A model generated the notes under the pieces. It made no database searches and was not told where the DNA came from. It was given only the letters and a program-made list of their open reading frames with translations. Of a stretch of 39,982 nt of DNA, positions 734-30,609 are shown piece after piece. The stretch is from the IMG/VR virus record IMGVR_UViG_3300047393_000100; one strand, 5' to 3'. Each line of letters opens with the position of its first letter. Position 1 is the stretch's first letter. Both the position numbers and the translations under genes were made by a program. Source of the DNA: a virus (Duplodnaviria; Heunggongvirae; Uroviricota; Caudoviricetes).

Positions 734-1231
734 ATGATAAAACCGAAGACATTAAATCAAGAGGTTGTTAGTGTAATAAATAAAAGTATTGCATTTGAAT
801 ATACGTCACATCTATTTTGGAATGCTGCATCTAATTGGTGTGCAAGTAAAGGATATAATACAGCTGCTGCATATTATGCAAATGAATCCTATTCTGAATT
901 AAAACATGTAAAAACTTTACAAGAATTTTTACTAGGATGGAATGTTGAACCAGCGATCCCCGCTGTAGAAACAGTATATAAATTTGATAGCCTACCCGAT
1001 ACTGTAGAAAAATCATATCAATTAATGCTTGCAATTTTCGATAACTATGTTGATAATTCTCAGTCTATTTTTGCAATTGACCTATCAACATTTGATTTTT
1101 TACAACAATTTAGATTAAGACAAGTTGAAGCACTTGCAATTTATTCTAATATATTAAGTGGATTAGAATTAATAGATATGAATAATAAATTAGATTTATT
1201 ACACTTTGAAGAAATATATTTAAAAGCATAA
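734..1231 (+). CDS. Ferritin-like protein with degenerate ferroxidase centre
   Basis: Aligns by eye to FtnA (SNWCASKGYNTAAAYY..ELKH, TFDFLQQF..Q); several iron ligands are substituted. Confidence 0.8.
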   Translation: MIKPKTLNQEVVSVINKSIAFEYTSHLFWNAASNWCASKGYNTAAAYYANESYSELKHVKTLQEFLLGWNVEPAIPAVETVYKFDSLPDTVEKSYQLMLAIFDNYVDNSQSIFAIDLSTFDFLQQFRLRQVEALAIYSNILSGLELIDMNNKLDLLHFEEIYLKA

Positions 1232-1779
1232 TGAAAAAAGTAAAATTATTTGAAGAATTTTTAAATGAAAGTTCTACTTGGGAAAATCTTTGTAAAAAAT
1301 CAAAGGTTATGTTTGGCGAATGGGTAATAGACGCATTAACTGAAGATGACATGGCCAAAATCATTGATTTAAAAGAGGCTGATAAATTAGCTAAAAAAAG
1401 ATATGGTGAATTTGGATTTGCTACTCTTGACCTTGATGAAATGCAAGAACTTATTAACAGATATCCTAAATTAGTAAAGGAATCATTGGTAAATGAAGCT
1501 AAAGATTCTACGAGAGAAGAATTAATGGATTTGTTAGAAACTAAATACAAAATCAAAACTGTTAGAACTTCTGAAGAATTCAATGGTCAAACTGAAGGAA
1601 TTTGGATTGCAGCCGATAACGAAGAAGAATTAAGCGGTAATAGAATGTTTGATTATTACAATCGTTCAGCAAAATATACGAATGGTGTACTAAAACAACT
1701 TAGAACAGCAGTTGAAAAAACAGGTTGGTGGTTCGAATGGAATGATCCAGGAACAATTATGATTTGGCCTAAAAATTAA
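1231..1779 (+). CDS. Putative capsid-internal protein, MKKVKLFEEFLNE leader, two modules
   Basis: Shared leader; internal LVKESLVNE-A linker; starts in a TAATG overlap with the ferritin stop. Confidence 0.7.
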   Translation: MKKVKLFEEFLNESSTWENLCKKSKVMFGEWVIDALTEDDMAKIIDLKEADKLAKKRYGEFGFATLDLDEMQELINRYPKLVKESLVNEAKDSTREELMDLLETKYKIKTVRTSEEFNGQTEGIWIAADNEEELSGNRMFDYYNRSAKYTNGVLKQLRTAVEKTGWWFEWNDPGTIMIWPKN

Positions 1780-1790
1780 TAAATAAAGAT

Positions 1791-1964
1791 ATGAAATATA
1801 TACAATTATTTGAAGAATTCATTAATGAAACTGAAATTGTTTATCATGATTACGATTTTCTAGGCATGCAAGCACAGATGGCAAATATGACAAGAGAAGA
1901 ATGGATTGCACATTATGGAACCGCGACTATCGGTTCTGGTATTGATGAAAAAAAAGAAGTATAA
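1791..1964 (+). CDS. 57-aa protein with MKYIQLFEEFINE leader (not in ORF track)
   Basis: Translated by hand: MKYIQLFEEFINETEIVYHDYDFLGMQAQMANMTREEWIAHYGTATIGSGIDEKKEV; ATG 1791, TAA 1962-1964. Confidence 0.75.
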   Translation: MKYIQLFEEFINETEIVYHDYDFLGMQAQMANMTREEWIAHYGTATIGSGIDEKKEV

Positions 1965-2459: not shown

Positions 2460-2975
2460 ATGATAGTAGACAGAATATCCTTAAATATTGCACTAAAATA
2501 TCTTAATCAATTTCAACAAAATGAGGGAGAGGTTATTGATATACTTTTTACGTATAGGGATCAAGTAAATCCATTTACAAAAACTATGAAATTTGATAAT
2601 ATGGAAACATTAATATCGTTCGTTGATCGATATGCACCGTTAGTTGCATTCCAAGATATTGATTGCCAAGTAACATATTTATATCAAATTCAATCTTTTT
2701 CCATAATTAAAAATGGAACTGATAAAAACAAGGTGTACTATAATATAAATAACTTCACAACAAGTAGTACAAATATTAATCAAATATCTTTAATAGGATT
2801 AAATGATGGATATTTACCAGACATTGCCGAAGTTACACATGCATTTGTAGGAATTAAAATAAATGAATATATTTTAAATCAATTAGACTACATCGATTGC
2901 GGATATATTGAAATACATTATCCTGAGGCAATTTTAGAATTGGAAACACTATACAATAAATATAAACAAATATAA
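2460..2975 (+). CDS. Hypothetical protein
   Basis: 171-aa ORF in a tight operon with its neighbours; no family recognised. Confidence 0.6.
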
Positions 2976-5900
2976 TGGCACAAGACAATTTACAAGACTC
3001 AGAAATGAGAGGCCCTTATGGAGAATATAATCCGCTTTATCCAGGAGATCTTGGTAGAGCATTATATCATCCGGAGATGGATTATAACTTAGACCTAATT
3101 GGTCAAGTTATTCAAGGCTTTAGAGTGATGGGTACGAATGGTGATGGTAGCATAAATATAGATGATGATACTGAAAAGGTATTAAAACTATATATTGTTA
3201 AAATTACAGATACTGCCCTAATATCAGCTGGAGCTCCGGTTGGAGATAGAGTATGGATCCCTACTGATAAGATTGGAACCGATGAAGGACCTCAAGGATT
3301 TCAAGGAGATAGAGGATTTCAGGGGTTTCAGGGAGCTAGAGGGTTTCAAGGAGACAGAGGGTTTCAAGGAGCCAAAGGAGACCAAGGATTCCAAGGAGCT
3401 CAAGGTTCACTAGGAGCCGTTGGAGCACAGGGATTTCAAGGAGAACAAGGATTTCAAGGAGCTAGCGGATTTCAGGGGTTTCAGGGAGTTAGAGGGTTTC
3501 AAGGATTTCAAGGAGATCAAGGAGACTTAGGATTTCAAGGTAATCAGGGTCTTAAAGGAGATCAAGGATTTAGAGGAGACCAAGGTGCAAGAGGAGACCA
3601 AGGATTCCAGGGTAATCAGGGTTTTCAAGGTAATCAAGGAGCCAAAGGAGATCAAGGTTTTCAAGGTAATCAGGGTCTTAAAGGAGACCAAGGTTTTAAA
3701 GGAGACCAAGGTTTTAAAGGAGACCAAGGTCTTAAAGGAGATCAAGGATTCCAAGGTAATCAGGGTCTTAAAGGAGACCAAGGTCTTAAAGGAGATCAAG
3801 GCTTTAAAGGAGACCAAGGAGCCAAAGGAGACCAAGGATTCCAAGGTATTCAAGGTTCTAAAGGGGACCAAGGATTCCAAGGTAATCAAGGTTTTAAAGG
3901 AGATCAAGGGGCCAAGGGAGACCAAGGATTCCAAGGTAATCAAGGAGCCAAGGGAGATCAAGGATTCCAAGGATTCCAAGGTAATCAAGGAGCCAAGGGA
4001 GACCAAGGATTCCAAGGTAATCAAGGAGCCAAGGGAGACCAAGGTTTTCAAGGAGATCAAGGAGCCAAGGGAGATCAAGGAGCTAATGGAGATCAAGGAG
4101 CCAAAGGAGACCAAGGATTTAAAGGAGACCAAGGATTCCAAGGTCTTAAAGGAGATCAAGGTCTTAAGGGAGACCAAGGTTTTCAAGGAGATCAAGGAGC
4201 CAAAGGAGACCAGGGATTTAAAGGAGACCAAGGATTTAAAGGAGACCAAGGATTTAAAGGAGATATCGGATTCCAAGGATATCAAGGTAATACCGGTAGT
4301 CAAGGTAGTAGAGGATTCCAAGGAGACCAAGGTTTTCAAGGAGATATGGGTGACCAAGGGTTTCAAGGTCAGAGTGGTTCTGTAAATGGACAAACATTTT
4401 ATATGAACGAATCCGTTATTATAGTTAATAATGGAGGTGGCGCAAACGATCTTAATGAAATCTCTCCAATTCCAACCATTGGATCACAACAGGTTGTTAC
4501 TGCAACATTAACTGCATTACAGTCTGATGTATTATTAACACAATTTATTACACCCGCCGGATTAGGAGTTGCTGTAGTTCCATCCGGAATACAACAATTT
4601 AAGATGCACTTTACAAAGGCGGATGAATCACATTTAATACAAGTATATGTAAAAATAACACAGACGAATGCGAGTGGAACTCCTATTGCAGTATGGGGAA
4701 CATCAACACCAAATTTAATAGGATGGGACACTAGTCCTTTAATACCAGTTGACGTTTATCAAGATATATTTATACCATCAAAATACGTAGATCCAACTGA
4801 TAGGGTATTAGTTCAATTATACGCAATTAACGATGATAATCAATCTAGGACAATTAAATTTTACACAGAGGGTATTACTGATTATTCATATATAATTTCA
4901 ACATTAGGAGCAACTGAAGGTCCTACAGGTCCTCAAGGTCCTCAAGGATATCAAGGTCTTAAAGGAGACCAAGGATTTCAAGGTCCTAAAGGAGACCAAG
5001 GATTTCAAGGAAATCAAGGATTTCAAGGTCCTAAAGGAGATCAAGGATTCCAAGGTAATCAGGGTCTTAAAGGAGACCAGGGTTTTAAAGGAGACCAGGG
5101 TTTTAAAGGAGATCAAGGATTTCAAGGATTTCAAGGTCTTAAAGGAGATCAAGGTCTTAAAGGAGATCAAGGTCTTAAAGGAGATCAAGGATTCCAAGGT
5201 CTTAAAGGAGATCAGGGTTTTAAAGGAGATCAAGGATTCCAAGGTAATCAAGGTCCTAAAGGAGATCAGGGATTCCAAGGTAATCAAGGGGCAAAGGGAG
5301 ATCAAGGTTTAGTTGGAGCACAAGGATTCCAGGGAGATCGAGGATTTCAAGGATTTCAAGGATTTCAAGGTTTAGTTGGAGCACAAGGTCTTAAAGGAGA
5401 TCAAGGTTCAGTTGGAGCACAGGGTCTTAAAGGAGATCAAGGATTTACAGGAGCACAGGGTCTTAAAGGAGATCAAGGATTTCAAGGAGATCAAGGTCTC
5501 AAAGGAGATCAAGGTCTCAAAGGAGACCAAGGATTTACAGGAGCACAAGGTCTTAAAGGAGACCAAGGATTCCAAGGAGATCAAGGCCTTAAAGGAGACC
5601 AAGGATTCCAAGGAGATAAAGGATTTACAGGAGATCAAGGATTTCAAGGAGATCAAGGATTTACAGGAAACCAAGGATTCCAAGGAAATCAAGGTCTTAA
5701 AGGAGATCAAGGATTTCAAGGAGATCAAGGATTTCAGGGTAATACTGGAACTGCGGCATTAGAATTATCATATGAATATATTTGGAGTGATGCAAATAAT
5801 GCTAGTACATATCCTGGACTTAATAAAATTGCAGTAAATGGCGAGCCAGATACCTTTTCAGACGCAGGAGCCTTCCATTCGATATCAGCAAATGGTGTTG

Positions 5901-8233
5901 ATATATCATCCATATTAAACGCAATTGGAAATGTAGGTGCAGTTAATAAGGCACAGTTTAAAATTACAAAGTCTAATGATATAACAAAATACTTATTATA
6001 TAATATTACTAGTGTATCAACAAATACATCACCTAGTAAATGGTTTCAAGTTAATCTAATTTCACAAACAGCTCGCATATATCCTAATCAATTTGTTAAT
6101 GGAGACTTAGTTAAATTAAGTTTTATTTTAAATGGTAATACTGGACATCAGGGTGCTATAGGTGATCAAGGGTTTAATGGCCCTACTGGAGATCAGGGTC
6201 TTACTGGAGATCAGGGGTTTAAAGGAGATCAAGGTGATATAGGATTTCAGGGTCTTACTGGATTCCAAGGAACTACAGGAGATCAAGGTTTTACAGGAGA
6301 TCAAGGTTTTACAGGAAATCAAGGACCTATTGGTTTTCAAGGAAATCAAGGATCAATCGGAGCACAGGGCGAAAGAGGTTTCCAAGGTTTAGTTGGGGCA
6401 CAAGGTTCAATCGGAGCACAGGGTTCAACTGGATTCCAAGGAACTAAAGGAGATCAAGGCGAAAGAGGTTTCCAAGGTTTAGTTGGAGCGCAAGGTTTAA
6501 CTGGATTCCAAGGAACTAAAGGAGATCAAGGTGACAGAGGTTTTCAAGGTTTAGTTGGAGCACAAGGTTCAACTGGATTCCAAGGAACTAAAGGAGATCA
6601 AGGTATTAAAGGAGACCAAGGTTTAGTTGGAGCACAGGGATTTCAAGGAGATAGAGGTTTCCAAGGTTTTATTGGATTCCAAGGAACTAAAGGAGATCAA
6701 GGATTAGTTGGACCACAAGGTCCAACTGGATTTCAAGGTGATATTGGAGCACAGGGTCTAACTGGATTCCAAGGTAATGTTGGAGCACAGGGAAGACAAG
6801 GTCCAATTGGAGCGCAAGGTCCAACTGGATTTCAAGGTAATATTGGAGCGCAAGGTCCAACTGGATTCCAAGGAATTAAAGGAGATCAAGGTGACAGAGG
6901 TTTCCAAGGTAATATTGGAGCGCAAGGTCCAACTGGATTCCAGGGTAATATTGGAGCACAAGGTCCAACTGGATTCCAAGGTAATATTGGAGCACAAGGT
7001 CCAACTGGATTCCAAGGTAATATTGGAGCGCAAGGTCCAACTGGATTCCAAGGATTAGACGGAGCGCAAGGAAGACAAGGTCCAACTGGAGCACAAGGTC
7101 CAATTGGATTTCAAGGTATTGGATATTATGGATTAACTAGTACTACTTCAGTTGGAACTGGCAGTTCTGGTTCTAAAGTATTTACAGTAAATCAAGCAGC
7201 TGGAACAAATGCATTTATAATAGGAACAACAGTTAAAGCTATTTCAGGTTCATCTTATTTGATTGGTGATATTACAGCGTATGTTGGAACAACACTTACC
7301 ATAAATGCAGTTGAATTTTCAAATACAGGCGGCGCGGCTAGTTGGACATTTTCAGTAATGGGTAATAAAGGTAATCAGGGTATTACAGGAGCACAAGGTC
7401 CAACCGGACCACAAGGACAACAAGGTCCAACTGGTCCAACTGGAGCACAAGGGTCGCAAGGTCCAACTGGTCCAACTGGAGCACAAGGTCTAACTGGAGC
7501 ACAAGGGTCGCAAGGTCCAATTGGTCCAACTGGAGCACAAGGTTCACAGGGTCCAATTGGTCCAACGGGAGCACAGGGTTCACAAGGTCCAATTGGTCCA
7601 ACTGGATTCCAAGGAGATAGAGGTTTCCAAGGACTTACTGGATTCCAAGGTGTTATTGGAGCAACTGGACCACAAGGACGACAAGGTCCTACTGGTCCAA
7701 CGGGAGCACAGGGGTCGCAAGGTCCAACTGGTTTAACTGGATTCCAAGGAGATAGAGGTTTCCAAGGATTTACTGGAGCACAGGGACGGCAAGGTCCAAC
7801 CGGAGTACAGGGTACTCAAGGGGCAGGAATTCCATTAGATAACTTAACTCTAACATATTCATTAGGAGTAGGAACGCCTGCGTCTGGATTAACAGGAGAT
7901 ATTAGAGCGACTGGAGATATCACCGCGTATTATTCTTCCGATAGACGATTAAAAACAGATATTGTTAATATTGATAATCCATTAGAAAAAATAATGCAAA
8001 TTGGAGGTTATAACTTTAATTGGATTGATATGCCAGATATACATGGACATGTCGGCGCAGATATTGGAGTAATTGCACAAGAAATTGAAGCGATTCTACC
8101 TGATATCGTTGCAACTAGACGTACTGGATATAAAGCAGTTCAATACGAAAAAATAGTGGCATTACTAATCGAAGGTATTAAAGCACAGCAAATTCAAATA
8201 GATGCATTAAACAAAAGAATAGATAATTTATAA
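2975..8233 (+). CDS. Collagen-like tail/virion fibre with C-terminal intramolecular chaperone (peptidase S74-like)
   Basis: Four Gly-X-Y tracts ([12 protein letters not shown]) separated by three globular inserts; C-terminal SDRRLKTDI...GVIAQEIE...[13 protein letters not shown] chaperone signature. Confidence 0.9.
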
Positions 8234-13539: not shown

Positions 13540-14091
13540 ATGGCAATGAAAAAATATACAACTGATAAGATTTTAATCTTCGACATTGACGACACTCTTG
13601 TGATAACGCATGCGAAGATAGTAGTTACTGATTCTAAAACTAAAGAATCATTTACGTTGACACCTGAAGAATTCAATGAGTATGAAAGAGGTATCGATCA
13701 TTGTATTAATTTTGACCAATTTCGATGTATAGAAATCATGAAAGCTGGCAAATTAATCTATAAATATTTCGATATTCTTAAAGAAAATTATAAAAAAGGT
13801 ATTGCAATTGGAATTATTACGGCTAGAGATGATAGAAATATGATTTATGAATGGTTCAAATATCATCTTGGATTTCATATTGATATGGAACTAATATGGG
13901 CTGTGAATGACCCCCTACATGGACTTACTGGAAACATACAAGAACGTAAGAAGCAGGCAATGCAATGGTTTATTGACGTAGGATATACTGACATCACGTT
14001 TTTTGATGATGATTTAAATAACATAAAATTAATTAATGAGTTGGGTATCGCATTGGAAATACCTATCAAAACGCATTTAGCTACAAAATAA
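13540..14091 (+). CDS. HAD-superfamily phosphatase
   Basis: ILIFDIDDTL (motif I), IITARD (motif II), FFDDDLNN (motif IV). Confidence 0.75.
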   Translation: MAMKKYTTDKILIFDIDDTLVITHAKIVVTDSKTKESFTLTPEEFNEYERGIDHCINFDQFRCIEIMKAGKLIYKYFDILKENYKKGIAIGIITARDDRNMIYEWFKYHLGFHIDMELIWAVNDPLHGLTGNIQERKKQAMQWFIDVGYTDITFFDDDLNNIKLINELGIALEIPIKTHLATK

Positions 14092-14094
14092 AGT

Positions 14095-15177
14095 ATGCGA
14101 AAAACGAAAAAAACGAATGCTATTTTAACATTAGTTGAAGAGGCTACTATACCTGGAACTTTGCATAATAACATGTATTTATTACAAAGATTGGTAGATA
14201 AAGGAAAATTGGAAGATTATCAAAGATTTATTACACAATTTCCAAATGGACAATTAGCAGCAATGTTACTTAAATATTTTGAAAGTCTGTCAGAGGATGA
14301 ATCTGATATATTAGCAGATGCTCTATATTCGTTAGAAGGTCCTCATCAATTAACAAAAGAGTATTATGCTGACAGAAATAATGTATGGGGTAGAATGTTT
14401 GACATGCAGGTTAGAGGATCAGGAAAGGGAGAAGTAATAATTGCATGGCTAATAAAAAATTCAAGCATACAAGGAGGTACCGAATCATTTGATGTTTTAA
14501 TTGAAGATAAAAAATATGAGGTAAAAGATTGGTCAAATCAAAAAAATTCATCAATATTGACTGGTGTGAAATCGAAGGTTTCTAATTTTGAATTTTGGAG
14601 AGAGATTGTAGATACTATTAGAAGATTAGATAAATTAACAGGATATTCAACATCGCCTAAGTTTAATTTTAAAGATTATTTCGATGATGATATATGTAAT
14701 TTGGTAGATATTATTTTAGAAAGACAAGGTATGATACTTTCTGGTGAATTTAATACAACAGATATTAAAAACTTTAAAAAATTCTATCAAAACATAAATT
14801 CTATTAATACTGAAATAATAGGATTTACAAATGTAATTCTTAGAGGACCTAATCAAGTTCCAATTGAATTAAGCATTGATCCCATTCATTTAAAAGATAT
14901 TTTAAATGAGTCATTAACAATACAAAGATCAAGCACTGATAATACATTTATTTATATTTTAACCGAACTGCGCAGACTAAAGTATGCAAGAAATCCAGAT
15001 GAACTGTACGCTGATATGCAATATGCTGTAAATAAAATAGTGGAAGGAATAACATATATTGTATATAGAGAAAATCAAATTAATATAACATGTGACTTTG
15101 TGCCACATGCTGTGAGTATATCAAGTTTAAGATTTCTTGAAAAAAGTATAGCTACCAAACATATAATTGATATATAA
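14095..15177 (+). CDS. Putative PD-(D/E)XK nuclease-fold protein
   Basis: GKGEVIIAW...FDVLIEDKKYEVK: E, D and ExK arrangement of restriction-like nucleases. Confidence 0.45.
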   Translation: MRKTKKTNAILTLVEEATIPGTLHNNMYLLQRLVDKGKLEDYQRFITQFPNGQLAAMLLKYFESLSEDESDILADALYSLEGPHQLTKEYYADRNNVWGRMFDMQVRGSGKGEVIIAWLIKNSSIQGGTESFDVLIEDKKYEVKDWSNQKNSSILTGVKSKVSNFEFWREIVDTIRRLDKLTGYSTSPKFNFKDYFDDDICNLVDIILERQGMILSGEFNTTDIKNFKKFYQNINSINTEIIGFTNVILRGPNQVPIELSIDPIHLKDILNESLTIQRSSTDNTFIYILTELRRLKYARNPDELYADMQYAVNKIVEGITYIVYRENQINITCDFVPHAVSISSLRFLEKSIATKHIIDI

Positions 15178-15198: not shown

Positions 15199-15381
15199 AT
15201 GAGTCAAGAAGAATGGAATGTATATATTGATACTGGATTTGTTCCTCATTATTTTATAAAAGAAATAGTGGAGAGTATTAAACTTGGCCATGTGTTAACA
15301 CCCAAGCACTTACAAATCTATATTACACATAGCCAAATAATAGAAATATATCTAAACACGAAAAACGATGAAAAAAATTAA
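15199..15381 (+). CDS. Hypothetical protein
   Basis: 60-aa ORF after a GATATATAAATA motif, overlapping the next gene start. Confidence 0.55.
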   Translation: MSQEEWNVYIDTGFVPHYFIKEIVESIKLGHVLTPKHLQIYITHSQIIEIYLNTKNDEKN

Positions 15382-16150
15382 ATTATTCGAAGAATTTATT
15401 AATGAAATTAAAGGAAGAAATAACACAGATCCTGAAGAAATAATAGATGATATTAACTCTAGAGTTAACTTTGGAAGTGCTGCAATCAAAGACACTAAAG
15501 ATGGACCGTCTATTGTTATTTACCTTGATAAAAAATCTGAAAATCATAGTACAATAGTAAAAGAACTTGAAAAAATATATACTGATGCTATTAAATATGA
15601 AAAAGGCAACTCAAGTAAAGATATCATTGTCTTTAGAATCAATGAAGAATTTGTTAATGAAATTAATATAGAAGATACCGAAATAACAGAAACTATATCT
15701 GAATTTTATGAATTGCAGATGCAAATCTTACAACTACAATCTGAGTTAAAACAAAAACAGGCGCAGTTTAAAAAGTTTGATACAAATATTCAACCAATAA
15801 TCGATGGAATGAAAGAAACTGGTGATAAGTTAGGGGTTACTGAAAAGTATGTTGTAAAGGTTTCAAGATTTGGATATGAAAGAACTACTGCATCATATAA
15901 AGATGCGTTTGAATTAGCGCTATCTAAAGTAAATGGAGCTACTCAAAAAATATTAAAGGAAGCGTTAGTTGCAACCGAAAAGGTAGGAAGTGTTGCAAAT
16001 TCATACACGATTGACCAAATGAATGAAGCGAATATTTTTCAAAAGATTATATCAACGTTAAAGGATATTTCCAGTAAATTTGTTAATATGTTTAAAAAGG
16101 AATCTAAAAATATTGATGCTGCAAATAATGATTTAAAAAAAATAGTATAA
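15368..16150 (+). CDS. Putative capsid-internal polyprotein, MKKIKLFEEFINE leader
   Basis: Leader plus internal INEEFVNE-I and QMNE-A sites; coiled-coil second module. Confidence 0.7.
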   Translation: MKKIKLFEEFINEIKGRNNTDPEEIIDDINSRVNFGSAAIKDTKDGPSIVIYLDKKSENHSTIVKELEKIYTDAIKYEKGNSSKDIIVFRINEEFVNEINIEDTEITETISEFYELQMQILQLQSELKQKQAQFKKFDTNIQPIIDGMKETGDKLGVTEKYVVKVSRFGYERTTASYKDAFELALSKVNGATQKILKEALVATEKVGSVANSYTIDQMNEANIFQKIISTLKDISSKFVNMFKKESKNIDAANNDLKKIV

Positions 16151-16701
16151 TGAAAAAAATTAAACTATTCGAAGAATTTATGAATGAATCAGTAAATGAA
16201 AAGAAAGCAGCATATGATTACGGATGTGCAATGATATACTTTGAATTTCCAGAAATGGAAGATATTCACGTTAAAATAGAGAAAGATGATGTATTTGTGG
16301 ATCCTAAAGATTCTACATTTGGACTAGAAACTGAACCGCATTGCACATTATTATATGGATTACATGCTGATGTGGCTCTTAACACTATTAAAAAAATAGT
16401 AGATGGATTTGAATTTGGTGAATGTACTATTAAAGAGGCTTCACTTTTTGAAAATGAAAAATTTGATGTACTTAAATTTGATGTAACTGGAAGTGGATTA
16501 CACGATTGCAATTCTGCTTTATCAAAATTACCACATACTACTGATTATCCTAACTACCATCCACATATGACAGTGGCATACCTTAAAAATGGTATGGGTA
16601 AAAAATATGTAGATTTATTAGGAACTGAAGAAAGAACCTTAAAACCATCATATATTGTTTATAGCCAACCTGATGGTACCAAAACCAAGATATCTTTATA
16701 A
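16150..16701 (+). CDS. 2H phosphoesterase, Acb1/T4 gp57B-like, with MKKIKLFEEFMNE leader
   Basis: Two HxT motifs (EPHCTLLYGL, YHPHMTVAY), YGCAM N-motif, DYPNYHPH. Confidence 0.75.
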   Translation: MKKIKLFEEFMNESVNEKKAAYDYGCAMIYFEFPEMEDIHVKIEKDDVFVDPKDSTFGLETEPHCTLLYGLHADVALNTIKKIVDGFEFGECTIKEASLFENEKFDVLKFDVTGSGLHDCNSALSKLPHTTDYPNYHPHMTVAYLKNGMGKKYVDLLGTEERTLKPSYIVYSQPDGTKTKISL

Positions 16702-16703
16702 GA

Positions 16704-16711
16704 GATATATA
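16704..16711 (+). promoter_or_regulatory. Putative late promoter GATATATA
   Basis: In the 35-nt gap before the 16737 gene. Confidence 0.35.
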
Positions 16712-16736
16712 AATGTAATAAACATAAAACAATATA

Positions 16737-17669
16737 ATGAAAAGAGTAAAGTTATTTGAAGAATTTATAAATGAATCTAAAGGATTAGAATTAGTACATG
16801 CATATGATAAAGATGGTACGATGTATGGTACTGGAGAACTTGTTAAAAAACAAGGTTCAAAATCTTTAATTAGATTTGACAGTGAAACTGAAAAATGGTT
16901 TGACAATAAAGACATTAAATTAGTAGAATCTAAATATAATGGAAATGTTGCCGGTGATGCCGCTGAATATATTGCTAAAGAATTATCGCAATACGTTAAA
17001 GGTATTATAAACCAATCTAATAATAATGTTACTTATTTTCATTTAAAAGATAAATCATATAAATCTAAAGTTATTAAAACCCTAAAGGATATTTATGGTT
17101 TAGATGCACAAGATGGTGGAACTCAATTCTCACCTTCACCAACTATCAAATTTGATAATGACGTAATATTGGAATCAAATATCGACGAAGCTACTACATC
17201 TTGGAGTAAAATGATGAAAGGTGTTAAGGGTGGAGATGGTGGACCTTGGAGTTTGGTTGCTATTGAATATGGAAAAGTAGTTGGTCAAAAAAATAGCATA
17301 AAGGTTAGAGACATATTACCTGCTGAATTTGAAGAATTTCGTAAACAATTTCCAAAGGCAAAAATTCATATTGAAGATGCTGGCGGTGGAGTAGTTTGGA
17401 ATGAATCTATTGTTAATGAAGCTCAAATCGGAGATAAATTAACTAAGAAATTTACAGAAGAAACTGGAATCTCAGTATGGGACAAAGTAACTTTAAAATC
17501 AGAATCTGGAATTTGGGTCGTTGCAAGATTATGGGCACCAAAGGATGATGGTGGTATGAATCCTGGTTTACATATTGAATTAACTAAAGGTAGTTCAAGA
17601 GAACACTTTCAGGTAATGGATGATAATGGAAATTTAAGCCAATTTGGAAAAGAAATCACAAAGAAATAA
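16737..17669 (+). CDS. Putative capsid-internal polyprotein, four small modules
   Basis: MKRVKLFEEFINE leader; linkers KLVE-S, VILE-SNIDE-A, VWNE-SIVNE-A. Confidence 0.7.
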   Translation: MKRVKLFEEFINESKGLELVHAYDKDGTMYGTGELVKKQGSKSLIRFDSETEKWFDNKDIKLVESKYNGNVAGDAAEYIAKELSQYVKGIINQSNNNVTYFHLKDKSYKSKVIKTLKDIYGLDAQDGGTQFSPSPTIKFDNDVILESNIDEATTSWSKMMKGVKGGDGGPWSLVAIEYGKVVGQKNSIKVRDILPAEFEEFRKQFPKAKIHIEDAGGGVVWNESIVNEAQIGDKLTKKFTEETGISVWDKVTLKSESGIWVVARLWAPKDDGGMNPGLHIELTKGSSREHFQVMDDNGNLSQFGKEITKK

Positions 17670-17935
17670 TGAAACACATTAAATTATACGAGGAATTTGT
17701 AAATGAAAAAGAATTTACAGAGGATCAAAGAAAAGAATTAGCAAGTAAAGGATTTGCATTGCCAGATGGAAGCTTTCCAATCGAAAATGTAGAAGATCTT
17801 AAGAATGCAATTCAAGCATATGGTAGAGCAGGAGACCAATCTGCAGCCGCAAAACATATTGCAAAACGCGCAAAGGCATTAGGACAAGAAGATCTAATAC
17901 CAACCAGTGATGATTTTCAAAAAAGTTTAAAATAA
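17669..17935 (+). CDS. Leader-bearing small protein, DUF6582-like domain
   Basis: MKHIKLYEEFVNE leader; ALPDGSFPIENVEDLKNAIQAYGRA...HIAKRAKALG resembles a phage head-associated domain as I recall it. Confidence 0.6.
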   Translation: MKHIKLYEEFVNEKEFTEDQRKELASKGFALPDGSFPIENVEDLKNAIQAYGRAGDQSAAAKHIAKRAKALGQEDLIPTSDDFQKSLK

Positions 17936-17937
17936 GT

Positions 17938-18447
17938 ATGAAAAAAGTAAGATTATACGAAGAATTCATTAATGAATCAAAGGATGTATTTCCAAATGAA
18001 ATCATAGGAAATGATAATATTCTTTTTAAGAAGGAGTGGGAAAAAATGAATGGTGGTAAACTTGCTGCCAAATATAACCAATATTTTAAAGGTTATGATA
18101 TTGATACAGGTGGACGTATCTTTAATACAGTAGATCAGTTAGAAAAATATATAAAAGCTACTGAACTTTCAAATAATCAATATAACAAATATAAGTATAT
18201 GCCAGAGATTCCAATTAAAGAATCTTTAGATGAAGCAGATGGTAGAGATACTCTAGGTGAATTACAAGAAATGGCATTAGGTCAACTTGAGAGAATAGCA
18301 GACTATGCTAATATGATTAAAGATCGCATAAACAGTGGAGAATCTCTAGAATCATGGATGTTTTCTCAATTAACTATTTCTTTAGAAAATCTAAATGCAA
18401 TACATGATTCAATGGACGGTAACGATAAAAACCCAAACGATAATTAA
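17938..18447 (+). CDS. Putative capsid-internal polyprotein, two modules
   Basis: MKKVRLYEEFINE leader; PIKE-SLDE-A linker; helical C-module EMALGQLERIADYA...LESWMFSQL. Confidence 0.7.
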   Translation: MKKVRLYEEFINESKDVFPNEIIGNDNILFKKEWEKMNGGKLAAKYNQYFKGYDIDTGGRIFNTVDQLEKYIKATELSNNQYNKYKYMPEIPIKESLDEADGRDTLGELQEMALGQLERIADYANMIKDRINSGESLESWMFSQLTISLENLNAIHDSMDGNDKNPNDN

Positions 18448-18693: not shown

Positions 18694-18720
18694 AAGGGAT
18701 CCCCAACAGGATCCCTTTTT
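18694..18720 (+). terminator. Intrinsic terminator
   Basis: AAGGGATCC-CCAACA-GGATCCCTT followed by a T run. Confidence 0.85.
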
Positions 18721-25149: not shown

Positions 25150-25893
25150 GGGTCCTATGGGACCAGCTTGACCCTAGGCACTATAGGCCTTACAGGGTAC
25201 CCTCAGGACAACTGCGGACCCTAGGGCACTGCAGAGTCAAATAGGCCCACAAGGACCCACTGCCAAATATTGCCAATCCAACACTATAGGCCTAGACGCG
25301 AGTGGTGATGGACGTAGAGCAAATGGAGTCATCATTGCATCAATTAGCCTTAAAGCGTATAGACCTCCATTTCGATAGAGAGACATGAAGGCATATGAGT
25401 AGAATTCGCAAATTGACTAAGAGTTTTAGGGTTGAGAGTTAGAGATGCATGGGTTTCTATTCATCTACTAATAATTAGTAATATAGCGATCGACCTTCCT
25501 ATAAGTCTACCATTAGTCACAGTCCAGAGATTCACTACACTCCAACCCATGTATGCCCCAGTGTCTCTCTAAGGTCATCAAATCCCTTGAGAATGTGTCA
25601 ACATACCCTCAGACGTTTCTCCATCCTACACACCCCTAGAAAAGTCAAAGTACCTGGATGAAAAAAATACCCCGGGGAAAATGGTCGACCACTTACGTAC
25701 TGCGGGAGTAACTATAAGAAATATAAGTACTAAAACAACACAGATATTGCCACAGATATTGACCCCTAGCATACCTCAGAGTAAATGTGAAAAATATTAT
25801 AAAAAAGTTTCACAGATTCTGAAACAAACGGGAGTACTGGCAATATAACTTAAGTCTTTAAGCCTGAGGGAAGACCAAGAGGGCAGATTACAT

Positions 25894-25936
25894 GAGGTTT
25901 GAGGTCTCACAGTACTGGAGAGGTTTGAGGTCTCAC
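25894..25936. repeat. 17-bp direct repeat GAGGTTTGAGGTCTCAC x2
   Basis: 25894-25910 and 25920-25936; a partial third copy AAGGTCTC follows. Confidence 0.85.
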
Positions 25937-26378
25937 CCGATTTAAGGTCTCTATATAGAATAATTTACCCTAAAAATAAGTGACTACCCAAATGAGGCGG
26001 AGGGGTGGCTGTTGTTGTAAGGACTATAAGTAATAAAAATAAATCGACATTTCGTTATTAGTATAAGACTATATAGATCAGATAATAAAAACGATATTCA
26101 TATAGATCTATATAGACAAGCAAGCAATCACATAAATATGGGAAATTATTTAAAGTATCATGAGGATGTGACAAGTATGGGTGTTGTTGCAAGGATCCCC
26201 TGATATTTTGGGGAATTACCCTTTAAGGTTCTGATATTCCTCCCGGGGATCTAGGCCCTTGACCCCTATTATTATAGGAAAAAATGAGTTTTTTGATGTT
26301 GATAAATTAAATTTTCCCACACCTATTAAAGATGGAAGATCTATGAGAAATAACTTGGAAATTATCTAAGAAATAAAT

Positions 26379-26406
26379 GAAACAAATACTAATAAGCTAA
26401 TATAAA
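26379..26406 (+). promoter_or_regulatory. Class-2 promoter GAAAC-N17-TATAAA
   Basis: Exact 17-nt spacer upstream of the Zn-ribbon gene. Confidence 0.6.
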
Positions 26407-26422
26407 TTACAAATAATCTAAT

Positions 26423-26629
26423 ATGTGGAAGACAAAAGAAATAACTAGACCAAATGGAACTAAGAAACGCCTAATGATTTGCCAAAATTCAAAACCAGGT
26501 GAAAGTAAATGGGGAGATTATGCACCTGAGGGTGGAATTTGTGAAAATTGGAGTGAGGTTGCACACAATACTACTGCATCCCTATGTCCTGAATGTACCG
26601 GTAGATCAGTCGGAGGCATGAAAATATAA
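26423..26629 (+). CDS. Small 4-Cys (Zn-ribbon-like) protein
   Basis: MIC...GIC...LCPEC; GAAAC-N17-TATAAA promoter upstream. Confidence 0.6.
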   Translation: MWKTKEITRPNGTKKRLMICQNSKPGESKWGDYAPEGGICENWSEVAHNTTASLCPECTGRSVGGMKI

Positions 26630-26683
26630 AGATATATAGAGTAACATACGATTTTGTTTTGAACCAACAATTTTTTCTATTAC

Positions 26684-26712
26684 AAGCTACCTTTAATCGG
26701 GTAGCTTTTTTT
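26684..26712 (+). terminator. Intrinsic terminator
   Basis: AAGCTACC-TTTAATCG-GGTAGCTT followed by a T run. Confidence 0.8.
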
Positions 26713-26781
26713 ATTAGAATAAATAGAATATAGAGGAAACAAAATCATTTTTTTCAATACAAATATTATAAATAATAAAAT

Positions 26782-29937: not shown

Positions 29938-30609
29938 ATGAATTACGGAAAAGAATTTGAAAAATACGCAATGAGTGACCATGGTGTTAGCTCAATGAAT
30001 TTACATTATGCAAAAAAGAATTTAGAAAATTCAATGACTCCATATATTTTAGAAGAGAGAGAATTGAGGGTTACTCAAATGGATATTTTTTCAAGATTAA
30101 TGATGGATAGATTATTATGGGTTGCAGGAACTGTAAATGATAATATGTCAACCGTTGTTCAAGCACAATTAATGTTTTTAGATTCAGTAGATACTAGAGA
30201 TATTACAATGCACATTGATTCAGGAGGAGGGAGTGTAAAGTCTGGACTTTCTATGGTAGATGTTATGGAATATATTAAATCTGATATACGTACAGTCAAC
30301 ACAGGAATGGCCGCCTCTATGGGTTCTGTATTATTAGGAGCTGGAACTAAAGGCAAGAGAAGTTCACTAAGACACTCTACCACTATGTTACACCAATCTT
30401 CGGGAGGATTCAGCGGAAATATTCAAGACGCTGAAATTGACTGGGCAGAATGGCAAAAGGTTAACAAAGAATTATTTAATCTTTTAGGACAATACTGCGG
30501 TAAAAAACCAGATCAAGTTATGAAAGATGCTACAAGAGATATGTGGTTAAACGCAGAAGAGGCATTGAAATACGGAATCATCGATGAGATTATAATTAGT
30601 AAAAGATAA
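29938..30609 (+). CDS. clpP: ATP-dependent Clp protease proteolytic subunit
   Basis: DIFSRLMMDR, IDSGGGSV, GMAASMGS (Ser), LHQSSGG (His), ATRDMWLNAEEALKYGIIDEI; MNYGKEFEKYA N-terminus resembles Bacteroidota ClpP. Confidence 0.93.
   Translation: MNYGKEFEKYAMSDHGVSSMNLHYAKKNLENSMTPYILEERELRVTQMDIFSRLMMDRLLWVAGTVNDNMSTVVQAQLMFLDSVDTRDITMHIDSGGGSVKSGLSMVDVMEYIKSDIRTVNTGMAASMGSVLLGAGTKGKRSSLRHSTTMLHQSSGGFSGNIQDAEIDWAEWQKVNKELFNLLGQYCGKKPDQVMKDATRDMWLNAEEALKYGIIDEIIISKR

What the first reader, a model, noticed from the sequence alone, without database searches (positions are those of the whole stretch)
16150..16701. Acb1/gp57B-like 2H phosphoesterase carrying the capsid-targeting leader
Seen: two HxT motifs (PHCTL, PHMTV) behind MKKIKLFEEFMNESVNE. 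Known: T4 gp57B (Acb1) is a 2H phosphoesterase that degrades CBASS/type III CRISPR cyclic oligonucleotide signals. Inference: the enzyme may be packaged and delivered at the moment of infection, before any phage transcription. The alternative is an RNA-processing 2',3'-cyclic phosphodiesterase.
Basis: partly seen in the sequence, partly recalled or inferred. Interest (0 to 1): 0.72.

Follow-up and report, generated by a model that had tools for sequence, protein, structure and literature searches.

The report
Leader-tagged Acb1-like phage phosphodiesterase
A jumbo phage, probably of Bacteroidota, encodes a small 2H phosphodiesterase, distantly related to the anti-CBASS enzyme Acb1, behind a removable T4-like head-targeting tag, so the enzyme is probably loaded into the capsid and injected with the DNA; neither its substrate nor its packaging has been shown.

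Summary
ORF 16150-16701 (+) encodes 183 aa with two intact HxT motifs (H64-C-T66, H139-M-T141) behind MKKIKLFEEFMNESVNE.

**Enzyme.** The body is a confident 2H fold (AF2 pLDDT 89). It belongs to a separate family of more than 870 members. Acb1 is its nearest characterised relative, but only by sequence profile. It scores below the Pfam Acb1 cut-off and lacks Acb1's Trp residues and C-terminal lid. Structure does not separate it from LigT, Usb1 or CPDase. The substrate is unknown.

**Leader.** Residues 1-18 are not part of the fold. The same leader heads 7 unrelated ORFs in the window and about 19 in the complete 256-kb relative G001. It resembles the T4 capsid-targeting sequence and ends in [ILV]-x-E, the T4 gp21 cleavage pattern. 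In 101 of 116 orthologues that Glu lies 8-9 residues before the first strand.

Supporting comparative evidence:
- all five related jumbo genomes tested have a T4-type S77 protease;
- a leader-bearing ORF sits between portal and protease in G001;
- cargo modules keep [ILV]-x-E boundaries whether free-standing or inside polyproteins;
- leader variants co-vary within genomes;
- other cargo includes Tad3 Thoeris inhibitors.

Packaging is inferred, not shown. This scan reached similar readings on other genomes (e1-1856634, e1-1852021).

The parts
16150..16701 (+). Whole ORF, 183 aa plus stop: leader followed by the 2H phosphoesterase body
   Evidence: more than 870 homologues, the nearest 90% identical
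16150..16188 (+). Leader M1-E13, MKKIKLFEEFMNE: the tag shared genome-wide, ending in M-N-E
   Evidence: Same leader on 7 ORFs in the window. AF2 pLDDT below 50 with a detached helix at residues 6-12. Same pattern as the T4 IPII/IPIII CTS MKTYQEFIAE.
16189..16200 (+). S14-E17 (SVNE): a second V-N-E. E17 is the Glu that is invariant across the family and the most likely processing site.
   Evidence: E17 invariant in alignment A1. An [ILVMFT]-x-E with its Glu 8-9 residues before the conserved Cys is present in 101 of 116 relatives.
16201..16698 (+). 2H phosphoesterase body, K18-L183
   Evidence: AF2 pLDDT above 90 for most of residues 19-183. 2H fold matches at Z 11.6-13.8. Leaderless orthologues start at the equivalent of residue ~20.
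16339..16347 (+). First catalytic motif H64-C65-T66
   Evidence: Invariant H64 and T66; coordinates
16564..16572 (+). Second catalytic motif H139-M140-T141, within the block T-D-Y-P-N-Y-H-P-H-M-T-V-A-Y that is shared with Acb1
   Evidence: hhalign and HMMER alignments to Acb1; coordinates
15169..15177 (+). GATATATAA, a putative phage late-type promoter heading the run 15199 -> 15368 -> 16150
   Evidence: The same motif lies 19-36 nt upstream of the G001 prohead protease gene, the 561-aa gene after the capsid gene and several very large ORFs; the portal gene has the one-base variant AATATATAA. Function inferred only.
15368..16150 (+). Upstream leader-bearing ORF (260 aa), translationally coupled to the 2H gene. 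Its first module (residues 1-93, ending FRINE) is fused directly to a 2H body in relative P0116.
16704..16712 (+). Second GATATATAA motif, immediately after the 2H stop codon, heading the next leader-gene run
16737..17669 (+). Leader-bearing 310-aa polyprotein. Modules B (residues 65-146) and D (229-310) are separate leader-bearing ORFs in G001, with boundaries at [ILV]-x-E.
17669..17935 (+). Leader-bearing 88-aa ORF
17938..18447 (+). Leader-bearing 169-aa ORF
1231..1779 (+). Leader-bearing 182-aa ORF, orthologue of G001 194239-194787 (50% identity)
1791..1964 (+). Leader-bearing 57-aa ORF
18694..18717 (+). Terminator-like hairpin that closes the leader-gene cluster

Best explanation
The gene encodes a two-part protein. 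The body (about residues 18-183) is a catalytically competent 2H phosphodiesterase. It belongs to a large, uncharacterised phage family whose nearest characterised relative is the anti-CBASS nuclease Acb1. The first 13-17 residues are a detachable address tag equivalent to the T4 capsid-targeting sequence. The proposed mechanism is as follows. The gene is expressed with the head genes, and the amphipathic leader docks the protein onto the prohead core. The T4 gp21-type (S77) prohead protease cuts after the conserved [ILV]-x-E (E17, possibly also E13). The mature enzyme stays in the capsid and is ejected with the DNA into the next host. There it most likely hydrolyses nucleotide immune messengers (cyclic di- or tri-nucleotides of CBASS or type III CRISPR type) before any phage gene is expressed. 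Shown here: the ORF, the catalytic tetrad, the 2H fold, the modular and widely shared leader, its fixed [ILV]-x-E end, and the T4-type head genes in five related jumbo-phage genomes. Inferred: cleavage, packaging, injection and substrate.
For: ENZYME. Two invariant HxT motifs. Pfam 2H hit above cut-off. AF2 pLDDT 89 with a 2H fold. In the PDB profile search only Acb1 entries are hit. hhalign against an Acb1 alignment gives 89.5%, E 2e-6, across the block T-x-D-[YF]-P-D-Y-x-P-H-x-T-x-[AS]-Y, against 2.3% for E. coli ThpR. The Acb1 base-stacking residue F107 aligns with the conserved Y133.

LEADER AS A TAG.
(1) Residues 1-18 have pLDDT below 50 and are detached from the fold. Orthologues in Maribacter phage Molly, LR756508 and LR756504 lack the leader and start at strand 1.
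(2) The same leader heads 7 unrelated ORFs in the window and about 19 in the complete relative G001.
(3) It has the same pattern as the T4 CTS: MKTYQEFIAE|A against MKKIKLFEEFINE|S. T4 internal proteins join the core through the CTS, and gp21 cuts after Glu, for example at ITE-6 and LTE-619 (PMC5694885).
(4) 115 of 116 orthologues have [ILVMFT]-x-E, and in 101 the Glu lies 8-9 residues before the conserved Cys.
(5) All 5 related jumbo genomes have Peptidase_S77 above cut-off, and G001 has a gp23-type capsid gene.
(6) In G001 the ORF between portal and protease, the position of T4 gp67/gp68, carries the leader (MKKLIKTFEQFIFE|AEA), and the capsid protein starts MAQLINE|AEIRETWSPIIE|A.
(7) Module boundaries: FVNE|AQIGDK follows the leader in G001 and IVNE|AQIGDK follows an internal linker in the window; likewise KLVE|SKYNG and EIKE|SKYNG. 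In P0116 the 2H body follows leader-module-VIDLNE|.
(8) Lineage-specific leader types are shared by the 2H protein and unrelated neighbours in the same genome (L077/L078 RMQKLAGLIxE, L037 FTQFxNE).
(9) A GATATATAA motif is shared by the head-gene upstream regions and the 2H operon.

ANTI-DEFENCE THEME. Leader cargo includes Tad3 Thoeris inhibitors (3 of 41, best E 4e-19), GNAT acetyltransferases and a kinase. In T4 the Acb1 gene 57B is adjacent to ipI. T-even internal proteins are diverse defence proteins that share only the CTS (PMC3012670).
Against: There is no direct evidence for cleavage, packaging or injection: no proteomics exists for any relative (pT24 has only a genome announcement). 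The window's own head genes could not be examined because no whole genome is held; the head-module evidence comes from a relative whose 2H orthologue is 72% identical. Pfam Acb1 scores below cut-off (22.7 against 27) and the profile match is local, covering 44 columns. The protein has no Trp (Acb1 uses W74 and W147) and no Acb1-like C-terminal lid or E141 context. VIA-align gives Usb1, CPDase and LigT-type enzymes Z scores equal to or slightly above those of Acb1. Two structural groups of viral 2H PDEs cleaved none of 18 messengers tested (10.1101/2025.08.21.671373), so an intact tetrad does not predict an immune-signal substrate. A HAD/polynucleotide-kinase-phosphatase-like gene lies 2 kb upstream, and relatives encode Rnl1 and Rnl2 RNA ligases, which keeps an RNA-end function possible. 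S77-like matches also occur in genomes whose orthologue lacks the leader, so leader and protease are not strictly correlated. The promoter motif is AT-rich, and its late timing is assumed.
Confidence: 0.55

Rival explanations
1. The leader is a capsid-targeting tag as above, but the enzyme is an RNA-end or other phosphoesterase (RNA 2',3'-cyclic phosphodiesterase, healing of RNA cut by host anticodon nucleases or CRISPR/abortive-infection RNases, or Appr>p hydrolysis) and not a degrader of cyclic-oligonucleotide immune signals.
For: VIA-align places Usb1, Deinococcus CPDase, archaeal and Thermus LigT-type enzymes and plant CPDase at Z 12.9-13.8, marginally above Acb1 at 12.2. Swiss-Prot neighbours are Usb1, YjcG and ThpR types. 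PHROG 755 and many source annotations say 'RNA ligase/2'-5' RNA ligase'. A HAD gene matching the polynucleotide kinase PHROG lies at 13540-14091. G001 has a leader-bearing AAA_33/Zeta-type P-loop kinase three genes from the 2H orthologue and Rnl1 plus Rnl2 ligases. The Acb1 lid and Trp residues are absent.
Against: Sequence profiles favour Acb1 over ThpR. The RNA ligases lie about 190 kb from the 2H gene in G001 (about 62 kb across the terminal repeats) and carry no obvious link to it. T4 has Pnk, Rnl1 and Rnl2 and still uses its 2H protein as Acb1. The names are automatic family labels. The only leader cargo with a characterised function is an immune inhibitor, Tad3.
Confidence: 0.22
2. The shared N-terminus is not a capsid-loading signal. 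It may be a different common signal, for example a degron or adaptor tag for the phage's own ClpP/ClpB-like machinery, a timing or regulatory peptide, or a sequence favoured for translation initiation. In that case the 2H enzyme acts in the cell in which it is made, like T4 Acb1.
For: The window encodes ClpP (29938-30609) and a ClpB/ClpA-like double AAA+ ATPase (26782-28752). T4 Acb1 is not known to be packaged. Some orthologues work without a leader. No proteomic evidence exists. The leader is AT-rich and lies at the start of the mRNA.
Against: Synonymous variation and unrelated upstream DNA argue against a nucleic-acid signal. The [ILV]-x-E end at a fixed distance from the domain, the same sites used as internal module boundaries, the leader on the ORF in the gp67/gp68 position of the head module, and LINE|A and IIE|A at the capsid protein N-terminus are all specific predictions of the T4-type core-and-protease model and are not expected for a degron.
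Confidence: 0.15
3. The N-terminal segment is an enzyme-specific lid that closes over the substrate, like the N-terminal lid (residues 1-15) of phage BCSR5 2H PDE-9.
For: PDE-9 has an N-terminal lid that affects substrate selectivity (10.1101/2025.08.21.671373). 9Q2G is the best PDB profile hit. The leader is predicted to be a short helix.
Against: The identical peptide heads 6 other unrelated ORFs in the window and about 18 in G001. It is absent from several orthologues. In P0116 a whole extra module separates it from the 2H body. AF2 does not dock it on the active site (pLDDT below 50).
Confidence: 0.03

Closest known systems
Acb1 (phage T4 gene 57B; Erwinia phage FBB1, PDB 7T26/7T27; Pfam PF23474), anti-CBASS 2H nuclease (Hobbs et al. 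2022, PMC9117128)
   Same: Compact phage 2H phosphoesterase with an HxT/HxT tetrad. Shares the extended block around the second motif (T-x-D-[YF]-P-D-Y-x-P-H-x-T-x-[AS]-Y), including the position of base-stacking F107 (Y133 here). Acb1 is the only PDB family hit by sequence profile. In T4 the gene lies next to a CTS-bearing internal-protein gene, ipI.
   Different: Below the Pfam gathering score (22.7 against 27). The profile match covers 44 columns only. The protein has no Trp (Acb1 W74, W147), no Acb1-type C-terminal lid and no E141 context. BFVD Acb1 models reach only TM 0.5-0.6 at ranks 25-35. Acb1 has no cleavable leader and is not known to be packaged.
Capsid-targeting sequence (CTS) of T4 internal proteins IPI/IPII/IPIII and Alt, removed by prohead protease gp21 (Mullaney & Black 1996, cited via PMC5694885 and PMC3012670)
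   Same: A short N-terminal peptide, M-K-x..-[FY]-[EQ]-E-F-I-x-E, on otherwise unrelated proteins, ending in [ILV]-x-E. It occurs in phages with gp20/gp21/gp23-type head genes. The genes are clustered in variable regions. The cargo includes anti-defence proteins (T4 IPI* against GmrSD; Tad3-like proteins here).
   Different: Three residues longer (MKKIKLFEEFINE against MKTYQEFIAE). Far more numerous per genome (about 19 in G001). Also used as internal linkers in polyproteins. Found in jumbo phages related to Bacteroidota phages, with a protease fused to a scaffold-like region. Function is inferred here, not demonstrated.
Divergent viral 2H phosphodiesterases (Doherty et al. 2025, bioRxiv 10.1101/2025.08.21.671373; PDE-9 of Burkholderia phage BCSR5, PDB 9Q2G/9Q2Y; penguinpox cGAMP PDE 9BKQ/9CIW)
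   Same: Phage and viral 2H PDEs with a conserved tetrad and low sequence identity. 9Q2G is the top PDB profile hit and 9CIW the top Foldseek hit.
   Different: No relative of this family is named among the enzymes tested there. Substrate range in that study followed structural group, and two groups were inactive on all 18 messengers. None is described there as virion-targeted.
E. coli ThpR/LigT and archaeal/bacterial RNA 2',3'-cyclic phosphodiesterases
   Same: Same 2H fold (Z 12-13.5, rmsd about 3 A) and the same catalytic tetrad.
   Different: No significant profile similarity (hhalign 2.3%, mis-registered). ThpR has Arg five residues after the second His (HITLLR in the alignment), where this family and Acb1 have Tyr.
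Virion-delivered anti-defence proteins: T4 IPI*, P1 DarA/DarB, ICP3 ejectosome protein Gp15 inhibiting the CBASS effector CapV (bioRxiv 10.1101/2025.07.23.666291)
   Same: The concept of a counter-defence protein carried in the particle and present at the moment of DNA entry.
   Different: None of these is an enzyme that degrades signalling nucleotides. Gp15 is a structural ejection protein that moonlights, not dedicated CTS cargo.

Membership tests
2H phosphoesterase superfamily | Two H-x-T/S-x motifs forming the catalytic tetrad | tested here: met
   H64-C-T66 and H139-M-T141, invariant in 30 relatives
2H phosphoesterase superfamily | Bilobed alpha+beta 2H fold | tested here: met
   AF2 pLDDT 89. 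VIA-align Z 11.6-13.8, rmsd about 3 A over 130-155 residues to many 2H structures. Pfam PF13563 at 28.7 bits against a cut-off of 27.
Acb1 (Pfam PF23474) | Score at or above the Pfam gathering threshold | tested here: not met
   22.7 bits against a cut-off of 27. Many relatives carry a precomputed PF23474 hit. hhalign against an Acb1 alignment gives 89.5%, but over 44 columns only.
Acb1 (Pfam PF23474) | Nucleobase-stacking aromatics Y12, W74, F107, W147 and adenine-specific E141 (Hobbs 2022) | tested here: inconclusive
   F107 aligns with the conserved Y133. The protein has no Trp. Equivalents of Y12, W74 and E141 could not be assigned without coordinates.
Acb1 (Pfam PF23474) | Flexible C-terminal lid (residues 145-152) closing over the ligand | tested here: not met
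   The C-terminus YIVYSQPDGTKTKISL is predicted as core beta-strands at high confidence and shows no sequence similarity to the Acb1 tail.
Acb1 (Pfam PF23474) | [quoted passage not shown] | not testable with these tools
   Requires enzyme assays and plating experiments
T4-type capsid-targeting sequence (CTS) cargo | Short N-terminal peptide shared by otherwise unrelated proteins of one phage | tested here: met
   7 ORFs in the window and about 19 in G001, far above the controls. Lineage-specific variants co-vary within genomes.
T4-type capsid-targeting sequence (CTS) cargo | Leader ends in the prohead-protease motif [LI(V)]-x-E | tested here: met
   M-N-E13 and V-N-E17. The Glu lies at a fixed distance from the domain in 101 of 116 relatives. 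The same motif bounds modules in polyproteins.
T4-type capsid-targeting sequence (CTS) cargo | Genome encodes a gp21-type (S77) prohead protease and a gp22/67/68-type core | tested here: inconclusive
   Met in all 5 related jumbo genomes and in the G001 head module, which has a leader-bearing ORF between portal and protease. The window's own genome is not held.
T4-type capsid-targeting sequence (CTS) cargo | Protein is found processed in virions; leader is sufficient to package a foreign protein | not testable with these tools
   No proteomics for any relative
ThpR/LigT RNA 2',3'-cyclic phosphodiesterase | Sequence-profile similarity, including the H-x-T-x-x-R second motif | tested here: not met
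   hhalign 2.3%, E 0.02, wrong register. Tyr144, not Arg, stands five residues after H139. No LigT chain appeared in the PDB sequence searches.

The most novel reading that the evidence does not exclude
Jumbo and huge phages with T4-type heads, many of them apparently infecting Bacteroidota, run a large and previously undescribed 'injected proteome' system. A lineage-specific N-terminal address tag plus [ILV]-x-E processing sites load dozens of interchangeable cargo modules, singly or as polyproteins, into the capsid. These include a signal-degrading 2H phosphodiesterase, Tad3-type Thoeris inhibitors, GNAT acetyltransferases and kinases. Several host immune pathways would then be disarmed at the moment of DNA entry, before any phage transcription.
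Probability: 0.4. Interest if true: 0.8.

Novelty: new variant of a known kind. Interest (0 to 1): 0.62.

Why it matters
All characterised phage enzymes that destroy immune nucleotide signals (Acb1, Apyc1, other 2H PDEs) are thought to be made after infection begins. That leaves a window in which CBASS, type III CRISPR or Thoeris can fire. An enzyme delivered ready-made with the genome would close that window. It would extend the T4 internal-protein principle (IPI* against GmrSD) from restriction inhibitors to signal-degrading enzymes.

The leader also offers a practical handle. It is a simple sequence rule (an N-terminal tag ending in [ILV]-x-E, in genomes with an S77 protease) that could nominate injected anti-defence cargo in thousands of uncultured large phages. 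Such a tag could also be tried for loading foreign proteins into capsids, as was done with the T4 CTS.

If the enzyme turns out not to act on immune messengers, the family (more than 870 members) is still a large, untested branch of viral 2H enzymes.

Tried and rejected
- **Whole genome of the window:** not held. An exact-match scan of IMG/VR with a 44-mer from the gene found nothing. Head-gene evidence therefore comes from relatives.
- **Subfamily assignment by structure:** Foldseek PDB, VIA-align, BFVD and AFDB Swiss-Prot all confirm a 2H fold but do not separate Acb1 from Usb1, CPDase or LigT. I dropped structure as a discriminator.
- **Complex prediction:** G001 leader segment (2H orthologue residues 1-40) against the G001 protease-scaffold protein. 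No verdict (score 0.00, controls not run), so it counts neither for nor against.
- **RtcB ligase:** none found in the 5 relatives searched.
- **Literature search for the leader sequence** (KLFEEF, LFEEFI): no paper.
- **Virion proteomics of a cultured relative:** pT24 has only a genome announcement. PAU and PTm1 were not pursued.
- **Protein Atlas look-up of the neighbouring 310-aa leader protein:** no usable hit.
- **Rfam and tRNA scans of the window:** nothing.
- **N-terminal lid reading of the leader:** considered and rejected because the peptide is shared with unrelated proteins (see rivals).
- **Leader as a DNA repeat or translation signal:** considered and rejected because of synonymous variation and unrelated upstream DNA.
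- **Sigma-70-type promoter scan:** at background level (38 found against 37.6 expected), so uninformative.
Full report
**1. Observation.**

ORF 16150-16701 on the + strand encodes 183 aa that begin MKKIKLFEEFMNESVNE. It contains PHCTL (H64, T66) and PHMTV (H139, T141); coordinates are. Its ATG overlaps the stop codon of the upstream ORF (TAATG), which suggests translational coupling. Both HxT motifs are invariant in 30 relatives.

**2. Context.**

The window is about 29% G+C, gene-dense and mostly on one strand. It encodes:
- a 1752-aa collagen-repeat fibre with an S74 intramolecular chaperone domain;
- a glucosaminidase and a ferritin-like protein;
- a GT25 glycosyltransferase and a carbamoyltransferase;
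- a thymidylate synthase;
- ClpP and a ClpB-like double AAA+ ATPase.

No whole genome is held for the window. The 2H protein has more than 870 relatives. The closest (87-90% identity) lie on syntenic metagenome contigs. Others lie in 480-640-kb huge phages, in IMG/VR jumbo phages and in Maribacter phages. The capsid gene of the complete 256,444-bp relative G001 (IMGVR_UViG_3300012346_000380, direct terminal repeats, 2H orthologue 72% identical) is closest to a 462-kb uncultured phage. After that come the Lak megaphages, Tenacibaculum phage pT24 and Sphingomonas phage PAU.

**3. The enzyme.**

Family searches place it in the 2H superfamily:
- Pfam 2_5_RNA_ligase2: 28.7 bits, cut-off 27.
- Pfam Acb1: 22.7 bits, cut-off 27, so not met.
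- PHROG 755, 'RNA ligase'.

AlphaFold2 run on a 30-sequence alignment gives mean pLDDT 89. Residues 19-183 are confident. Residues 1-18 score below 50 and form a detached short helix.

Structure searches confirm the fold but do not resolve the subfamily:
- Foldseek against the PDB ranks penguinpox cGAMP PDE, Usb1, BCSR5 PDE-9 and Acb1 first (E 5e-6 to 1e-4). E. coli LigT follows at 4e-3.
- VIA-align puts every 2H subfamily between Z 11.6 and 13.8.
- BFVD shows that the true structural neighbours are uncharacterised phage 2H proteins (TM up to 0.81). Entries named Acb1 appear at ranks 25-35.
- Swiss-Prot models give Usb1, YjcG and ThpR types at TM about 0.5-0.6.

Sequence profiles are more telling:
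- A profile of the family hits only Acb1 chains in the PDB (9Q2G, 7T26, 9Q2Y; E 0.05-0.5).
- hhalign of the leaderless body alignment (A3) against a 16-member Acb1 alignment (A2) gives 89.5% probability and E 2e-6 over 44 columns around the second HxT.
- Against T4 Acb1 alone it gives 43.8%.
- Against E. coli ThpR alone it gives 2.3%, in the wrong register.

The shared block (…T-T-D-Y-P-N-Y-H-P-H-M-T-V-A-Y here, …T-H-D-F-D-D-Y-T-P-H-I-T-L-S-Y in T4) includes the position of Acb1's base-stacking F107. However, Acb1's other ligand-binding elements (W74, W147, E141 and the C-terminal lid; PMC9117128) are not recognisable. This protein has no Trp, and its C-terminus is predicted as core strands.

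A recent survey shows that viral 2H PDE substrate range follows structural group, and that some groups cleave none of 18 messengers tested (10.1101/2025.08.21.671373). No relative of this family is named among the enzymes tested there.

Conclusion: this is an active-looking 2H phosphodiesterase of a separate family. Acb1 is its nearest characterised relative. Its substrate is unknown.

**4. The leader.**

*It is a shared peptide.* Seven + strand ORFs in the window (starts 1231, 1791, 15368, 16150, 16737, 17669, 17938) begin M-K-x-[IV]-[KRQ]-L-[FY]-E-E-F-[ILMV]-N-E and have unrelated bodies. All 7 motif occurrences in the six-frame translation are N-terminal. The reversed-string control gives 1. 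G001 has 20 N-terminal and 3 internal occurrences against 3 in the control, and about a dozen cluster around its 2H orthologue. Codons vary synonymously and the upstream DNA differs.

*It resembles the T4 CTS.* Fetched T4 sequences read MKTYQEFIAE|A for IPII and IPIII, and MKTFKEFTST…ITE|A for IPI. The window leader has the same pattern, three residues longer. In T4 all internal head proteins join the prohead core through the CTS. gp21 cuts after Glu and removes the propeptides of gp23, Alt and the internal proteins (PMC5694885). [quoted passage not shown]

**5. Tests of the CTS reading.**

(a) *Modularity.* Orthologues in Maribacter phage Molly, LR756508 and LR756504 lack the leader and start at the first strand. 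LR756502 and LR745206 have related leaders.

(b) *Fixed cleavage-type site.* Among 116 relatives the leader sequence varies by lineage. Even so, 115 have [ILVMFT]-x-E, and in 101 the Glu lies 8-9 residues before the conserved Cys26. E17 is invariant in alignment A1.

(c) *Protease.* All five related jumbo genomes carry Peptidase_S77 above cut-off, and none of 14 control genomes does. G001 also has a gp23-type capsid gene.

(d) *Head module.* The G001 order is portal, a 130-aa ORF, protease-scaffold (604 aa), then capsid. The 130-aa ORF occupies the position of T4 gp67/gp68 and contains MKKLIKTFEQFIFE|AEA. The capsid protein begins MAQLINE|AEIRETWSPIIE|A.

(e) *Module boundaries.*
- The window's 310-aa leader ORF contains two modules that are separate leader-bearing ORFs in G001 (82-83% identity).
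- Module D follows FVNE| (the leader) in G001 and IVNE| (an internal linker) in the window.
- Module B follows EIKE| in G001 and KLVE| in the window, and ends at VILE| in both.
- Relative P0116 has leader, module, VIDLNE| and then the 2H body. Its first module is homologous to residues 1-93 of window ORF 15368, which ends FRINE (E 1e-18).

(f) *Covariation.* Genomes whose 2H protein has a different leader type have unrelated neighbours with that same type. Examples are L077/L078 (…RMQKLAGLIVE| with …LRMQMLSGIITE|) and L037 (MIKSFTQFVNE| with MKLKKFTQFINE|). The mean best within-genome score is 24.4, against 16.1 between leader types.

(g) *Promoter motif.* GATATATAA lies 19-36 nt upstream of the G001 protease gene, the 561-aa gene after the capsid gene and several very large ORFs. 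The portal gene has the one-base variant AATATATAA. In the window the strict motif occurs at 699, at 15169 (heading 15199, 15368 and the 2H gene) and at 16704. Late timing is assumed, not shown.

(h) *Cargo theme.* Of 41 non-redundant leader proteins, 3 hit Tad3 (Type I Thoeris inhibitor; 68 bits against a cut-off of 27 for the G001 member). Two are GNAT acetyltransferases, 3 are ATP-grasp-like (below cut-off), 2 are DUF5824 and one is a Zeta/AAA_33 kinase. Tad3 binds and blocks ThsB (PMC13728456).

**6. Counter-evidence and limits.**

- Nothing here shows cleavage, packaging or injection. No relative has virion proteomics.
- The head-module evidence comes from relatives, not from the window's own genome.
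- S77-like matches also occur in genomes whose orthologue lacks the leader.
- The RNA-end rival remains open. A HAD gene matching the polynucleotide kinase PHROG lies at 13540-14091. G001 has a leader-bearing P-loop kinase and Rnl1 plus Rnl2 ligases, the ligases about 190 kb away. Structure does not exclude LigT-like chemistry.

**7. Mechanism and odds.**

- The protein is an active 2H phosphodiesterase: about 0.9.
- The leader is a T4-type capsid-targeting and processing tag: about 0.7.
- Given packaging, the substrate is a nucleotide immune messenger rather than RNA ends or another phosphoester: about 0.55-0.6.
- The full first-reader model (packaged and anti-signalling): about 0.4.
- My best explanation, which commits to the tag and to 'most likely anti-signalling': 0.55.

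**8. Novelty.**

Both components are known kinds: the T4 CTS with its internal proteins, and Acb1-type 2H PDEs. I found no description in the searchable literature of this leader family in these jumbo and huge phages, of its scale, of its use as a polyprotein linker, or of its attachment to a 2H phosphodiesterase. Virion-delivered counter-defence has precedents in IPI* (PMC13326640) and in ICP3 Gp15 against CapV (10.1101/2025.07.23.666291).

Earlier follow-ups of this scan reached similar readings for leader-tagged 2H proteins on other genomes (e1-1856634, e1-1852021). A first-stage note on this window proposed the polyprotein idea (e1-5400769), which I tested.

Noticed in passing
window 16737-17669; G001 193196-193627 and 193945-194232 (loci L102): The window's 310-aa leader ORF is a polyprotein of at least four modules separated by KLVE|, VILE|SNIDE| and IVNE|. 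Two of the modules are free-standing leader-bearing ORFs in the relative G001 (82-83% identity).
   Followed up: yes
G001 199513-200277 (L102:9516-10277, minus strand): A leader-bearing 254-aa ORF two genes upstream of the G001 2H orthologue hits Pfam Tad3 (Type I Thoeris inhibitor) at 68 bits. Three of 41 non-redundant leader proteins hit Tad3. No Tad3 homologue was found in this window by tblastn.
   Followed up: partly
T4 record NC_000866, 73591-74410 (L107:11592-12411): In T4 the Acb1 gene 57B lies directly next to ipI, a CTS-bearing internal-protein gene. T4 Acb1 itself starts MMEFKDFSTG, which faintly resembles the IPI start MKTFKEFTST but has no [LI]-x-E before strand 1.
   Followed up: no
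Maribacter phage Molly_1 NC_062751, L109:3280-3994: The two genes just upstream of Molly's leaderless 2H gene begin MKTNQIKSLVE|S and MKKENIKELIE|S. This may be a different CTS-like tag in a cultured phage that could be tested by proteomics.
   Followed up: no
L077, L078 (IMG/VR loci): A distinct leader type, …EFKRMQKLAGLIVE| / …LRMQMLSGIITE|, is shared by the 2H orthologue and unrelated neighbouring ORFs in these genomes.
   Followed up: partly
window 26782-28752 and 29938-30609: The phage encodes a ClpB/ClpA-like double AAA+ ATPase and a bona fide ClpP (E 1e-55) 1.2 kb apart, with a thymidylate synthase between them. Their role is unknown; they could be a rival receptor for an N-terminal tag.
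   Followed up: no
window 17669-17935: The 88-aa leader ORF (…ALPDGSFPIENVEDLKNAIQAYGRAG…) weakly matches the C-terminal part of PHROG 80, 'head maturation protease' (E 0.0065), and PHROG 16160.
   Followed up: no
window 13540-14091: A 183-aa HAD-type protein matches PHROG 415, 'polynucleotide kinase' (E 1.7e-10), 2 kb upstream of the 2H gene. It is conserved at this position in the closest relatives (L003-L005) and is relevant to the RNA-end rival.
   Followed up: partly
window 2975-8233: A 1752-aa ORF made largely of collagen triple-helix repeats (16 Pfam stretches) ends in a Peptidase_S74 intramolecular chaperone domain, so it is a fibre protein. G+C rises to 0.40-0.43 across it.
   Followed up: no
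window 25150-26780: About 1.6 kb has no ORF of 70 aa or more, no tRNA and no Rfam match. A GATATATAG motif lies at 26631.
   Followed up: no
BFVD hits A0A0K0N719 (Gordonia phage GMA2, 883 aa) and several 900-1100-aa Gordonia phage proteins: 2H-like domains occur inside very large actinophage proteins, one of them annotated 'putative structural protein'. This hints that virion-associated 2H domains may exist elsewhere.
   Followed up: no
window 15368-16150, residues 90-113: ORF 15368 contains an internal half-copy of the leader (RINEEFVNE|INIEDTEITE) right after its first module, which fits reuse of the tag as an internal linker.
   Followed up: partly
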